Source: Pocillopora damicornis
Taxonomy: Eukaryota
Length of the DNA stretch: 64,000 bases
Direction of reading: 5' to 3'
Assembly (NCBI RefSeq): GCF_003704095.1
Contig: NW_020847369.1
Location: 124,001 to 188,000, forward strand
Positions 27,001 to 64,000 of this stretch are shown piece after piece; position 1 is the first letter of the stretch, and every line of letters starts with the position of its first letter. The position numbers are program-made.

Positions 27001-30000
27001 CTGGCCTTGGCAAGCATCATTTAGGATAAAACCAGCTGGATGCTACAGTGGTGATTGAAAATAATTTTTATCACAAGTGTCCTTATATGTTATAACTGAC
27101 ATTACCAAGTTCTTGTCCAGTTACAATTGGACAAAATGTCAGCAGCAAGTTGATAAAATAGGAAATTCAGTAAACAAGTTTGGAAGAAGAGTTAGAATAT
27201 TCTAGTTATGGTCTTCATAAGTTTGAGATTCTAGCAGGACTGGATACAGGGTTTTTATCAGAAAATGTAATAGATGTTTGATCTGAACTAAATAGGGTGA
27301 ATGTAGGTGGCCCCCGTTCATAGGGGGAGTCTGGGGACCTGCTCACCCCCCTCCCCCAAATAAATTTGAATTTTAAACTTCTCTGGGATGTGATTTCCAA
27401 AAGAAGAAACTGAGACATAAAATGTACATAGACATAAAATGCAAGTGTGTTATTTCTCTCACTTGAATGTCAATGAACTGCAACAACTTGGCTGCACTGC
27501 TGCATATGACAGATTCATCATCTGAACTGCAGCACTTTAAGCTACAAAATACAGAAAAAAAGTTGTTCAGCTGGTGGATCAGTTTATCAGCTGTTTTGTT
27601 ATTAGTGCTACATAACACAAGCTTGAACAGCACTTATTACAAAATATATGGGATTCTCTTGCAAAGTTTAGGTCGCCATGGAAATTTTTTATTTGTTAAG
27701 TTTGGAAGTTCTTGAACTTTTTTTTTCTTTTTAAACTCAAAGAAATCACCCATTTCATCATCATGGAAAAGGTTGCAGGTAATATATTAACCTAAATTAT
27801 AAATACGTGGAAAAAACTGTTCCTGTAGCGATAATTCAAAGAATAAGAATACGTTATAGCTATTGTAAATGAAGTAAAATTTTATAGAAAGGAAAATAAA
27901 GTCCAAATCGTCAAAGAATCGTACTCTTACCCGTTGTTAGGTCCCAAAAGTGTTTTGACAGAAGAAGCTGAGGGAAAAAATAAAATAAGAAATTGACAAA
28001 AAGTCTCCCGGTGAAAATAATTTCAAGGATGACTTTTTCTATTTTAAGGATCACTTGTTGGTTTCCTTACCAAGAGCTCTCGCTACACTAAGATTGTTGT
28101 TATTTCGTGCCACCCGGCCAAACTCATGTCCGTCCGCCATATTTGTTATGCTTAGCGACCTGGCCAGATCAAGTAATGAAACTCATCAAATGACGACACA
28201 TTCAACATTTTTGCAAGATGGCTGCGGTAGGGATACGAAGGTCCTTGCCGCTTTTTCGACATTGTAGAGGTATTTGGCAAGCCAACAGGTAATTAGAACT
28301 ATTTATTTGAAAATGAAACAAGTTACTTGGTTTTTCCTGGGGTAAAGTGAACAGATCGTATTTTTAATGTAAGCTTATCGACTCTAACTTTTTCTTTATC
28401 TTTAGGTCCTTGAGTTTGTGTTGTTGCCGGCTTTCTCCCGGTATTGAAGTTGTTTCGAGGAAGAAGATGAATAGTTCTCGTGAAGTAAACAAGCACGATT
28501 TAAACGTAATCCCAAGGAGAACGTTAATAGGATCCATTATTCCGAATCCCCTCAATACGTCGCGGAGGAGAAAGTATTCCGAGAGGAGATTGCTTGGGTA
28601 AGTAAATTTAATGGTTCAATAAGTTTATGTTTATACTATATTGTAACCCCCTTGTTTGGTTGGAAATGATCATTAGAATACATTTTCAATCCGCACGAGT
28701 TTTCAAGCCCTTTTGATCTTGACTGCTCCATAACTGGTTAAGTAAAACGTTATTTTAGGAAAACTGTTAAACCTGGAAAATGTACAAATTATTCTGACGT
28801 GCACCTTCGTACAAAGTCCGTCACTCGTTTCTAAGAATTCAATGTATATGACAAAAAAATGAGCGTATATGCTTTACTCTAGTTACTCTGTCTCTAATAG
28901 TTTCATATAATTGTGTTTGATCGTTGAGGGTTTCAAAAGATTTTAACCCTATAATTCGTAGAAGCAATTATCCTGTGACTTCTCCAAGGTATGATATCCA
29001 TACATCGTCCAATAAACAGGTAATGAGAATGCTCAAACTTATAAGGTAGAATTTGTTATCTTGATACGATCTAACATCAAATGCTCCTTACTAATTTAAA
29101 AGGAAATGTGCCGCAGCTAGAGGGGAGAATAAGCAATCAAATCTTGGAAGAACTGTTAATTTTTTTCACAGGAATCTTAGGAGAAATTTATGTTCCTAAG
29201 GCTTTCCAACCTACTTGTTTGGAAGGTTCTTATAAAGACTTTGAACAATGGATTCCAACAATACTCCTTCAACAACCCTTTCAGCAATATTATTTTGATA
29301 ATATTACTGATAAATGCAGAGCACTGAGAGTAGGGTTTTCTTTCTATGATTAAGGATACACAGAAAGAATTAAAAGACTACTCTAATCTCAAGTGATCTC
29401 ATTTTTGTACTGTTATTTATGTGATAACATCGTTCTTCTTATAGTTACTCAATGGAGGATATGTATGCAGTGGTATCAGATGTGGAGGATTATAGACATT
29501 TTGTCCCTTGGTGTAGGGACTCTACAATTGTGGCCAGAAAACCAGGCTTCCTTAAAGCTAAACTAGCTGTTGGTTTCCCACCTGTGGTTGAGAAGTATAC
29601 ATCTGTTGTATCTTTGGCCCCACCAAACCTAGTGAAGGTACTAAATCTGTGTAATTAAGTTTTTTATATAATTATGTATCACACATCTGTACATATGTAG
29701 GTTGGCACACTGAACTGGATAAGATCTCTAGAATATGCCAACAGGCTTGAGAGCTGACTTTTCATGACAAGTTAAGCTTAACCCTTTTACTCCCATGAGT
29801 GACCAAGACAGAATTTCTCCTTACAATATCAACACAATATCAACCAGATAAGTGATGAGAATAAAGAAAAATATCAGTTAGGGGATTATAAGTTGATACA
29901 ATACCAAACTTTCTAAACTAACTTCACAAGAACTGTACAAGGAACAGTATTGAGAATTACTAATGAGATCTTGGGAGATAAAGTGTAAATTTATTTGGGC

Positions 30001-63000: not shown

Positions 63001-64000
63001 AGGCAGAGGTGACAAAAGCACCCTTTAAAATCAGTATGACTTAATTTCCAAAGAAATTCAATTGTATATTCAACAGTTATTTATTAGTACACTACATGGT
63101 TGAAATTTTCCTTGCCAATGCATCTTGAAGTCAAAAGATTGCTTACAGTGTTCCTTTGGAGTGACAAGTTATGCATGCCCCTTAACCCTTTAATTCTTAT
63201 GAGTGACCAAGACAGAATTTCTCCTCACAATATCAATACAGTATCAACCGAACAAGTGATGAGAGTGAAGAAAAATATCAATTTGGGGATACTTAGTTGA
63301 TCCAATACTAAATTCTCTGAACTGACACTATAAGAATTGTGTGGAAAACAGGAGAATAACAAATGTGATCTGGGAGTGAAAGGGTTAGGAGTATTTCTTT
63401 CCACCTAAAACACATCTCATGTACTCTGAAACAAGAATTTTCTTTAGTAGATACCAGCATAAGGCTCATTTTTACAAAAATGAAAAAAAGATTCAAAGAA
63501 CAAATCACAACAAATCACTCCTGAAATTTTGTAGAATCCAGGCAAGTTTGTTCTATTTTTACATGTCATTGTATAAATTTTGGCGGATACAAAGCTCATT
63601 TTTATGTCAATAAATGTTTGTCACATGGTGCTGTTTTCAACAATGGGCTATTTTCCCCATAAAAGTAGGCTGAAAAAATATGTGAACAGCCAGTGGCTGT
63701 GAGCTCATTTGAAAACACAGGTACTGACCTGATTAGCCAAGCCATGAAGAGGTCCTGCCAGACCATTCATACCAGCAGCAAGGCACAGATAGGGATCTGA
63801 CAGAGCACTACCAACAAGGTGGGTGGTATGAGCACTGACATTTCCTCCTTCATGATCAGCATGCAGAACAAGGTACAGCCGCATCATCTCGTGGAACATA
63901 GGATCCTCAAAACCGAGCATGCTAGATAAGTTATCAGCCCAATCTTTGCCTGGATCCACAGGTGTGACTTTTCCATCCTTGAACACATTTCTGTATATGT

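What the first reader, a model, noticed from the sequence alone, without database searches (positions are those of the whole stretch)
28218..64000. Ancient mitochondrial gene block COQ10 - HSP60/HSP10 - CS that mirrors two human paralogous loci
Seen: COQ10(+) ... HSP60(-) HSP10(+) CS(-) lie within ~36 kb. Known (recalled): human COQ10B is adjacent to HSPD1/HSPE1 at 2q33.1 in +/-/+ orientation, and COQ10A is adjacent to CS at 12q13.3 in +/- orientation. Inference: this window preserves a pre-bilaterian cluster of four nuclear-encoded mitochondrial genes that vertebrate genome duplication split by reciprocal loss. Long-term retention suggests shared regulation.
[Added by the scan's program, not by the reader: the finding's places include an assembly gap (unread letters, written N; its length is only estimated) at 45447 to 45546. 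Whether the letters on both sides are continuous or in frame is not known: test that first.]
Basis: partly seen in the sequence, partly recalled or inferred. Interest (0 to 1): 0.7.

Follow-up and report, generated by a model that had tools for sequence, protein, structure and literature searches.

The report
Coral COQ10, HSP60/HSP10, citrate synthase linkage
In a coral genome, four nuclear genes for mitochondrial proteins lie within 36 kb in the order and orientation expected if two separate human loci descend from one ancestral block, a tidy but so far two-species example of ancient gene linkage.

Summary
COQ10 (+, ATG at 28218), HSP60 (-), HSP10 (+) and the 3' half of citrate synthase (-, its 5' half lies beyond the window end) are intact, spliced genes in the stated order and orientation. 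The window is coral, not human: the closest named relatives are Stylophora (CS) and Porites/Acropora (COQ10).

The N gap lies in an intron of an unrelated WIPF-like gene. That gene's N-terminal and C-terminal exons flank the gap in the correct order, so no focal gene touches it.

The block is not contiguous. An LRR gene and the WIPF-like gene fill 21.5 kb between COQ10 and HSP60.

Papers confirm the human side:
- COQ10A-CS lie 3'-3', 0.7 kb apart.
- COQ10B is listed with HSPD1/HSPE1.
- 2q33 and 12q13 are paralogous regions.

The HSP60-HSP10 head-to-head pair is already a textbook ancient pair. The wider four-gene reading is plausible (about 0.6). It rests on two lineages only, because no animal genome collection was available. 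Shared regulation is untested in coral; two mammalian papers give hints. I found no main-text description of the block in seven literature searches; supplements were closed. Interest is moderate.

The parts
28218..30857 (+). COQ10 (coenzyme Q-binding START-domain protein). Five coding exons, 253 codons, Arg-rich N-terminus typical of a matrix presequence.
   Evidence: ATG and the first intron were read directly. Phase-compatible GT-AG junctions. Pfam PF03364 5.9e-14 on exon 3. Named COQ10B-like coral relatives at 76-80%. Collinear tblastn of P0006 over residues 1-246.
34580..37379 (+). Intervening gene 1: protein with SDS22-type leucine-rich repeats followed by an acidic stretch. Orthology unresolved and limits approximate.
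   Evidence: ORFs. One of 5 exon ORFs searched hits Pfam LRR_4 at 2.3e-7. The best PDB match is PPP1R7, but through many repeat matches. The library search was swamped by multi-repeat LRR proteins.
42343..46973 (-). Intervening gene 2: WIPF-like (WASP-interacting protein family). N-terminal WH2 exon 46749-46973, Gly-rich exon 44834-45088, Pro-rich exon 43442-44281, WASP-binding-motif exon 42946-43095, tail exon 42343-42477. It spans the assembly gap.
   Evidence: Pfam WH2 2e-13. PDB WIP WH2 peptide 2a41 at 9.3e-7. PDB WIPF1 9s9x at 2.8e-7 and 2ifs at 3e-5. ORFs.
38672..39501 (-). Second, diverged copy of the last two WIPF-like exons: WASP-binding motif at 39337-39501 and tail at 38672-38866.
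   Evidence: ORF translations. About 75% nucleotide identity between the tail regions. No Pfam hit.
45447..45546 (.). Assembly gap (100 N), inside an intron of the WIPF-like gene. Not filled or looked up.
   Evidence: The left flank 45191-45446 consists of two interspersed repeat families with other copies in the window; the right flank is unique within the window.
52358..56212 (-). HSP60 (mitochondrial chaperonin 60). Eight coding exons, 591 codons, presequence-like N-terminus, GGM-repeat C-terminal tail.
56213..57586 (.). 1,374 bp between the divergent HSP60 and HSP10 start codons. A polypyrimidine-AG acceptor directly precedes the HSP60 ATG, which implies an upstream non-coding exon. A repeat copy lies at 56322-56412 and a G+C peak (0.475) at 57100-57299.
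   Evidence: Sequence read. Composition. Repeat. No heat-shock-element enrichment.
57587..60650 (+). HSP10 (mitochondrial co-chaperonin 10). Exon 1 carries only the ATG, followed by four more coding exons; 100 codons.
60651..61724 (.). 1,074 bp between the convergent stop codons of HSP10 and CS. It must hold both 3' UTRs.
   Evidence: Coordinates.
61725..64000 (-). Citrate synthase, 3' part only (residues 224-471 of 471). The 5' half and the promoter lie beyond the window end.
   Evidence: Pfam Citrate_synt on 3 of 4 ORFs, two above the cut-off. PDB eukaryotic/mitochondrial CS at 1e-36 to 1e-40. 100% match to P0018. Donor site read.
15445..20348 (-). Context: CREB/ATF1-type gene (pKID exon 20013-20348, bZIP exon 15445-15702), about 8 kb upstream of COQ10.
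   Evidence: Pfam pKID 6.3e-9 and bZIP_1 1.2e-15. ORFs.

Best explanation
The window is a genuine stretch of a scleractinian coral genome (Stylophora-like, family Pocilloporidae). One COQ10 gene, the divergent HSP60/HSP10 pair and citrate synthase are linked in the order and orientation +, -, +, -. The most likely reading is that this linkage was inherited from the common ancestor of cnidarians and bilaterians.

In vertebrates the region was duplicated. COQ10 survived on both copies, HSPD1/HSPE1 survived only beside COQ10B (2q33), and CS survived only beside COQ10A (12q13).

Different forces probably keep the parts together:
- HSP60 and HSP10 are held by a shared divergent 5' regulatory region. 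This mechanism is known.
- HSP10 and CS abut 3'-to-3' with about 1 kb between their stop codons, which leaves little room for a harmless breakpoint.
- COQ10 is only loosely linked: it lies 21.5 kb away with two unrelated genes in between. It is probably retained by slow rearrangement, perhaps helped by local enhancer sharing.

Shown: the gene identities, their integrity, order, orientation and spacing, and the human arrangement as described in papers. Inferred: the ancestry of the block, reciprocal loss, and any regulatory constraint.
For: The gene models are intact and phase-consistent.

Identities:
- Pfam.
- Solved structures.
- Named relatives.
- Collinear tblastn.

Coral origin: CS is 92% identical to Stylophora pistillata. 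COQ10 is 80% identical to Porites, 76% to Acropora and 51% to Hydra.

The join across the gap is supported by a WIPF-like gene. Its WH2 N-terminal exon lies to the right of the gap and its WASP-binding C-terminal exon to the left, in the correct order on the - strand.

Human side:
- COQ10A-CS lie 3'-3', 0.7 kb apart, and share enhancer chromatin (PMC8788487).
- COQ10B is listed with HSPD1/HSPE1 (PMC6891073).
- 2q33 and 12q13 hold ERBB4/ERBB3, IGFBP2,5/IGFBP6, MYL1/MYL6 and IHH/DHH (PMC2235844).
- CREB1 is at 2q33 and ATF1 at 12q13 (PMC8089120). A CREB-type gene lies 8 kb from the coral COQ10.

The HSPE1-HSPD1 pair is conserved 5'-5' from human to Capsaspora and fungi (PMC3514665; PMC2871058).

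The orientations in the coral match both human loci: COQ10 and HSP60 convergent, HSP60 and HSP10 divergent, CS convergent with what lies upstream of it.
Against: Only two lineages were compared. No third animal genome could be examined, so ancestry rests on parsimony.

COQ10 and HSP60 are not neighbours in the coral: two genes and 21.5 kb lie between them.

A join across a 100-N gap lies between COQ10 and HSP60. The gap starts inside a repeat.

PMC2235844 concludes that HOX-paralogon gene families arose largely by distinct duplications and rearrangements, not from one block.

No COQ10 gene tree was made, so the duplication is not dated to the vertebrate stem.

If genes of one ancestral linkage group are merely shuffled within a chromosome, occasional near-neighbour coincidences are expected genome-wide. 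By my own rough estimate, not a computed result, that expectation is of the order of 0.1 to 1 per genome before orientation is counted.
Confidence: 0.6

Rival explanations
1. Coincidence within conserved macrosynteny. The genes belong to one ancient linkage group, the one that became the vertebrate HOX-bearing chromosomes. Their closeness in this coral and in humans arose independently through intrachromosomal shuffling, so there was never an ancestral four-gene block.
For: Other genes of the window have human relatives on the same paralogous chromosomes: CREB-type, and WIPF-like, whose human locations I recall rather than tested. The window as a whole therefore looks like a condensed piece of that linkage group rather than a special mitochondrial cluster. 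COQ10 and HSP60 are separated by unrelated genes.
Against: Two separate adjacencies (COQ10 with HSP60/10, and COQ10 with CS) plus all relative orientations agree between coral and human. Independent origin needs several coincidences.
Confidence: 0.2
2. A selected, co-regulated mitochondrial gene neighbourhood. The four genes are kept together because they share cis-regulatory elements, for example temperature- or stress-responsive or mitochondrial-biogenesis enhancers.
For: In mouse, Coq10b, Hspd1 and Hspe1 are all among the 12 most synchronised mitochondria-associated transcripts across 22 tissues under time-restricted feeding. The paper does not use the words 'neighbor' or 'locus' (PMC13206650, passages). 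Human COQ10A and CS share enhancer chromatin across their abutting 3' ends (PMC8788487). HSPD1/HSPE1 share a bidirectional promoter and are co-expressed at r = 0.81 (PMC3514665). HSF1 is required for their induction (PMC7262932, search-listing abstract only).
Against: Nothing in the coral sequence shows shared control beyond the HSP60/HSP10 5' region. Heat-shock-element matches in the window are at chance level: 2 exact against 1.3 expected, and 29 one-mismatch against 32 expected. Two unrelated genes sit inside the supposed neighbourhood. The CS promoter is outside the window. The human evidence concerns each pair on its own, after the split.
Confidence: 0.15
3. Assembly artefact. The scaffold wrongly joins two regions at the N gap, so COQ10 is not truly linked to HSP60/HSP10/CS.
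For: The gap begins inside an interspersed repeat copy. Its length is only estimated.
Against: A single WIPF-like gene has its N-terminal WH2 exon on one side of the gap and its WASP-binding C-terminal exon on the other, on the same strand and in the right order. HSP60, HSP10 and CS all lie on one side of the gap and are unaffected.
Confidence: 0.04

Closest known systems
HSPD1-HSPE1 head-to-head pair with a bidirectional promoter (Hansen et al. 2003, as cited in PMC3514665 and PMC2871058)
   Same: Orthologous genes that are adjacent and divergently transcribed. The HSP60 start codon is preceded by an acceptor site, which implies a non-coding first exon as I recall for the human gene. HSP10 exon 1 carries almost no coding sequence.
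   Different: The ATG-to-ATG distance here is 1,374 bp and includes a repeat insertion. Transcription start sites are unknown, so a TSS spacing under 1 kb is not shown.
Human COQ10A-CS neighbour pair at 12q13.3 (PMC8788487)
   Same: COQ10 on one strand and CS on the other, convergent. CS abuts its upstream neighbour 3'-to-3' at about 1 kb: 0.7 kb in human, 1,074 bp between stop codons in the coral.
   Different: In the coral the gene abutting CS is HSP10, not COQ10. COQ10 lies about 31 kb away with four genes in between.
Human COQ10B-HSPD1-HSPE1 locus at 2q33.1
   Same: Same three genes, same relative order and orientation.
   Different: In the coral an LRR gene and a WIPF-like gene lie between COQ10 and HSP60, and CS follows HSP10.
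Conserved ancestral microsyntenic pairs and blocks of metazoans (Irimia et al. 2012, PMC3514665)
   Same: Linkage of non-paralogous genes shared between a cnidarian and a vertebrate, including a 5'-5' co-expressed pair.
   Different: Conservation beyond two lineages was not tested here. Whether COQ10-HSPD1 or COQ10-CS are in that paper's lists is unknown: 0 mentions of COQ10 in its main text, and supplements were closed.
Bacterial groES-groEL operon
   Same: The same two chaperonin partners are kept adjacent and co-expressed.
   Different: The operon is co-directional on one transcript (established knowledge). The coral genes are divergent, with separate spliced transcripts.

Membership tests
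HSPD1-HSPE1 bidirectional pair | The genes are the mitochondrial-type chaperonin 60 and co-chaperonin 10 | tested here: met
   Cpn60_TCP1 and Cpn10 Pfam hits. The HSP60 exon matches animal mitochondrial HSP60 at 1e-47 to 1e-51 against GroEL at about 1e-27. The HSP10 exon matches human mitochondrial HSP10 at 7.9e-8. The HSP60 N-terminus is presequence-like.
HSPD1-HSPE1 bidirectional pair | Adjacent and divergently transcribed (5'-5') | tested here: met
   HSP60 ATG at 56212 on the - strand and HSP10 ATG at 57587 on the + strand. I recognised no gene in the ORFs printed for this interval; none of those ORFs was searched. Sequence read.
HSPD1-HSPE1 bidirectional pair | Transcription starts less than about 1 kb apart with a shared promoter | tested here: inconclusive
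   The ATGs are 1,374 bp apart. An acceptor site before the HSP60 ATG implies an upstream non-coding exon, so the starts are probably closer, but there is no transcript evidence.
HSPD1-HSPE1 bidirectional pair | Co-expression of the two genes | not testable with these tools
   No expression data for this organism.
Ancient conserved microsyntenic block (in the sense of Irimia et al. 2012) | The same non-paralogous genes are linked in at least two distant animal lineages | tested here: met
   Coral. Human: PMC8788487 and PMC6891073. In the coral, COQ10 is near HSP60 but not next to it.
Ancient conserved microsyntenic block (in the sense of Irimia et al. 2012) | Conservation in further independent lineages, so that ancestry rather than coincidence is shown | not testable with these tools
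   The only genome collection open here holds bacteria and archaea. The CS and HSP60 hit lists shared no named species with each other or with the COQ10 list, so contig co-location could not be compared.
Ancient conserved microsyntenic block (in the sense of Irimia et al. 2012) | Relative orientation conserved | tested here: met
+/-/+/- in the coral. Human COQ10A/CS are 3'-3' and HSPD1/HSPE1 are 5'-5'.
Ohnologue pair with reciprocal loss of neighbours (2q33 / 12q13) | The two human regions belong to one paralogon | tested here: met
   From the literature only: PMC2235844 Table 1 and PMC8089120. PMC2235844 disputes a single block origin.
Ohnologue pair with reciprocal loss of neighbours (2q33 / 12q13) | COQ10A and COQ10B split at the base of vertebrates, with a single pro-orthologue in outgroups | not tested
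   One COQ10 gene is in the window, and the named cnidarian hits are single 'COQ10 homolog B-like' entries. No vertebrate sequences were in hand for a tree, and genome-wide copy number was not examined.
Ohnologue pair with reciprocal loss of neighbours (2q33 / 12q13) | An unduplicated outgroup locus holds the genes that are divided between the two copies | tested here: met
   This window, subject to the gap.

The most novel reading that the evidence does not exclude
COQ10, HSP60/HSP10 and citrate synthase form a mitochondrial gene neighbourhood older than the cnidarian-bilaterian split. It is held together by shared cis-regulation, for instance temperature- or proteostasis-responsive control. 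After the vertebrate duplications each daughter locus kept a COQ10 copy together with part of that regulatory landscape. This would explain why mouse Coq10b cycles in step with Hspd1/Hspe1 and why human COQ10A shares enhancer chromatin with CS.
Probability: 0.15. Interest if true: 0.65.

Novelty: new member of a known kind. Interest (0 to 1): 0.4.

Why it matters
If it holds in more lineages, the block is a compact, easily explained case of two things: ancient microsynteny of unrelated genes, and reciprocal gene loss after the vertebrate genome duplications. One cnidarian locus would predict the content of two human loci.

All four products work in mitochondria. The block therefore also offers a concrete place to test whether linkage of nuclear mitochondrial genes reflects shared regulation or mere slow rearrangement.

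The HSP60/HSP10 part is already well known, and the rest is an added example rather than a new principle.

Tried and rejected
1. Cross-species contig co-location. I searched one CS exon and one HSP60 exon, hoping to compare contig lengths with the COQ10 hits. No named species was shared among the three lists, and the HSP60 list held no coral protein at all (best 83%).

2. Identity of the LRR gene.
- The library search with one exon returned 2,944 hits dominated by multi-repeat LRR proteins, with no usable orthologue.
- The PDB search gave PPP1R7 only through repeat matches.
- The cap-like exon gave 0 PDB hits.
- 4 of 5 LRR-gene ORFs gave no Pfam family.

3. Heat-shock elements. There are 2 exact matches in the window, both at 45083-45109 and outside any of the four genes, against 1.3 expected. 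There are 29 one-mismatch matches against 32 expected, of which 2 lie between the two ATGs (56443-56455 and 57378-57390). This is no evidence.

4. COQ10 exon against solved structures: 0 hits.

5. Rfam on the whole window: 0 families.

6. Human locations of WIPF genes. The one paper found was not informative, so those locations remain recalled.

Exon ends were then derived from coordinates only.

So there was no full-length search, fold or cluster look-up for the window's own COQ10, HSP60 or HSP10.

9. Literature searches for a prior description of the four-gene block found none in main texts.
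Full report
**What the window is.** It is eukaryotic DNA of about 37% G+C with three 100-N gaps. It is not human. One COQ10 exon is 80% identical to Porites lutea, 76% to Acropora muricata and 51% to Hydra vulgaris 'COQ10 homolog B'. One citrate synthase exon is 92% identical to Stylophora pistillata, and 100% identical to three unnamed proteins that the tool marks as the window's own. 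The source is therefore a scleractinian coral close to Stylophora.

**How the searches were done.** All protein searches used single exon ORFs. I built no joined coding sequence or full-length model, so no full-length search or fold was made for the window's own genes.

**The gap, tested first.** The N run at 45447-45546 touches none of the four genes.
- On its right lies an exon (46749-46973, - strand) with a WH2 motif (Pfam 2e-13). It matches the WIP WH2 peptide of PDB 2a41 (9.3e-7).
- On its left lie a Pro-rich exon (43442-44281) and an exon (42946-43095) that matches the WASP-binding segment of WIPF1 (9s9x 2.8e-7, 2ifs 3e-5).
- On the - strand this is the N-to-C order of one WIPF-like gene. 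The gap therefore sits in an intron, and the join is supported though not proven.
- The gap starts inside a copy of an interspersed repeat that recurs in the window. The right flank is unique within the window.

**The four genes.**

| Gene | Strand | Start codon | Stop codon | Coding exons | Codons |
|---|---|---|---|---|---|
| COQ10 | + | 28218 | 30855-30857 | 5 | 253 |
| HSP60 | - | 56212-56210 | 52360-52358 | 8 | 591 |
| HSP10 | + | 57587-57589 | 60648-60650 | 5 | 100 |
| CS | - | outside window | 61727-61725 | 4 in window | residues 224-471 of 471 |

- COQ10. The ATG at 28218 is the finding's start coordinate.
- HSP60. The protein has a presequence-like N-terminus and a GGM-repeat tail. 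The ATG follows a polypyrimidine-AG acceptor directly, so a non-coding exon should lie upstream.
- HSP10. Exon 1 carries only the ATG, followed by GTAAGT.
- CS. The exon ends agree with the residue numbering of P0018. The 5' half and the promoter lie beyond base 64000.
- All junctions chosen are GT-AG and phase-compatible, and the complete genes sum to multiples of three.

Identity evidence:
- Pfam. Cpn60_TCP1 hits 3 of 8 HSP60 ORFs, two above the cut-off. Citrate_synt hits 3 of 4 CS ORFs, two above the cut-off. Cpn10 hits 2 of 3 HSP10 ORFs searched. Polyketide_cyc hits 1 of 4 COQ10 ORFs. The ORFs without hits are short exons.
- Solved structures. The HSP60 exon prefers animal mitochondrial HSP60 (1e-47 to 1e-51) over GroEL (about 1e-27). 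The CS exon prefers eukaryotic/mitochondrial CS. The HSP10 exon matches human HSP10 at 7.9e-8, with a plant Cpn20-type protein slightly better. The COQ10 exon has no solved relative.
- Homologue mapping. Stored homologues align collinearly over all exons.

**Spacing and interlopers.**
- The HSP60 and HSP10 ATGs are 1,374 bp apart. The interval holds a repeat copy and a G+C peak at 57100-57299.
- The HSP10 and CS stop codons are 1,074 bp apart.
- The COQ10 stop lies 21.5 kb from the HSP60 stop. The interval holds an SDS22-type LRR gene (+, about 34580-37379), the WIPF-like gene (-) and a diverged second copy of its last two exons.
- So this is a linked group, not a contiguous cluster.
- Upstream of COQ10 lie a divergent chaperonin-like exon (24161-26359, -) and a CREB/ATF1-type gene.

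**The human comparison, from papers.**
- COQ10A and CS are 3'-to-3' neighbours 0.7 kb apart and share enhancer chromatin (PMC8788487, passages).
- A 2q33 locus list reads SF3B1 COQ10B HSPD1 MOB4 HSPE1 RFTN2 (PMC6891073, one table row).
- 2q33 and 12q13 hold several paralogue pairs of the HOX paralogon (PMC2235844, abstract in listing and passages).
- CREB1 is at 2q33 and ATF1 at 12q13 (PMC8089120, passage).
- The coral order COQ10(+), HSP60(-), HSP10(+), CS(-) is what one obtains by overlaying the two human loci. That supports an ancestral linkage followed by reciprocal loss.

**Evidence against that reading.**
- Only two lineages are compared.
- PMC2235844 concludes that these paralogon families arose largely by separate duplications and rearrangement.
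- The COQ10A/B split was not dated.
- PMC13684178 calls Coq10b a paralogue but does not use 'duplication' or any word beginning 'synten'.
- If genes merely stay on one ancestral chromosome and shuffle, a few such coincidences per genome are conceivable. That is my rough estimate, not a computation.

**What is already known.** The HSPE1-HSPD1 5'-5' pair is a published example of extreme microsynteny, found from human to Capsaspora and fungi but lost in flies. In humans it has a bidirectional promoter and co-expression of r = 0.81 (PMC3514665; PMC2871058). Neither main text mentions COQ10, and PMC2871058 does not mention citrate synthase (not queried in PMC3514665). Seven searches found no main-text description of the four-gene block. 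Supplementary pair lists, where it could be recorded, were closed.

**Regulation.** In the coral only HSP60 and HSP10 share a 5' region. Heat-shock-element matches are at chance level. Two mammalian hints exist:
- Coq10b, Hspd1 and Hspe1 are all among the 12 most synchronised mitochondria-associated transcripts across 22 mouse tissues under time-restricted feeding (PMC13206650).
- Human COQ10A and CS share enhancer chromatin.

These make the co-regulation idea worth testing but do not show it.

**Verdict.** This is a new example of a known kind of feature, ancient microsynteny with reciprocal loss after duplication, built around an already famous gene pair. It is of moderate interest.

Noticed in passing
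window 15445-20348 (-): CREB/ATF1-type transcription factor gene. It has a pKID exon (Pfam 6.3e-9) and a bZIP exon (1.2e-15), with Q-rich exons between. Its human relatives CREB1 (2q33) and ATF1 (12q13) sit in the same two paralogous regions as COQ10B and COQ10A, so the paralogy signal extends beyond the four mitochondrial genes.
   Followed up: partly
window 24161-26359 (-), possibly continuing to 22901-23473: A 733-codon open exon directly upstream of COQ10 and divergent from it. It gives a weak, sub-threshold Cpn60_TCP1 match (27 bits against a cut-off of 34.3) and chaperonin-family look-alikes in the protein atlas (0.87, a lead only). It may be a divergent group II chaperonin-like gene of the BBS10/BBS12/MKKS sort; that name is recalled, not tested.
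   Followed up: partly
window 38672-39501 and 42343-43095 (-): The last two exons of the WIPF-like gene (WASP-binding motif and Pro-rich tail) occur twice, about 3.6 kb apart, with about 75% nucleotide identity in the tail. This could be alternative 3' ends, a partial tandem duplicate or a second gene whose 5' exons I did not find.
   Followed up: partly
window 29014-29147, 36461-36656, 45191-45393, 47593-47793, 56322-56412; and 29778-29836, 32604-32660, 45388-45446, 59464-59523, 63182-63240: Two families of short interspersed repeats (71-83% identity between copies) are scattered through introns and intergenic DNA. One copy lies between the HSP60 and HSP10 start codons and one abuts the assembly gap. 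They give recurring spurious ORF translations.
   Followed up: partly
window 614-2894 (+), 6227-6859 (+), 8743-10341 (+), 11866-13084 (+): Other genes in the left part of the window: a calponin-homology-domain gene, a two-pore-type potassium channel exon (Ion_trans_2), an ENPP-type phosphodiesterase in three long overlapping ORFs in different frames (short introns or frame breaks, not resolved), and a BTB_2 plus TLDc domain gene.
   Followed up: no
window 11418-11517 and 13902-14001: Two further 100-N assembly gaps lie outside the finding. The first sits beside an ORF on the - strand that runs into it. Neither was examined further or filled.
   Followed up: no
window 45083-45109 (+): The only two exact heat-shock-element-like matches in the window are a 13-base word repeated twice, 1 base apart. 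They lie next to the Gly-rich WIPF-like exon, not near any chaperonin promoter.
   Followed up: no
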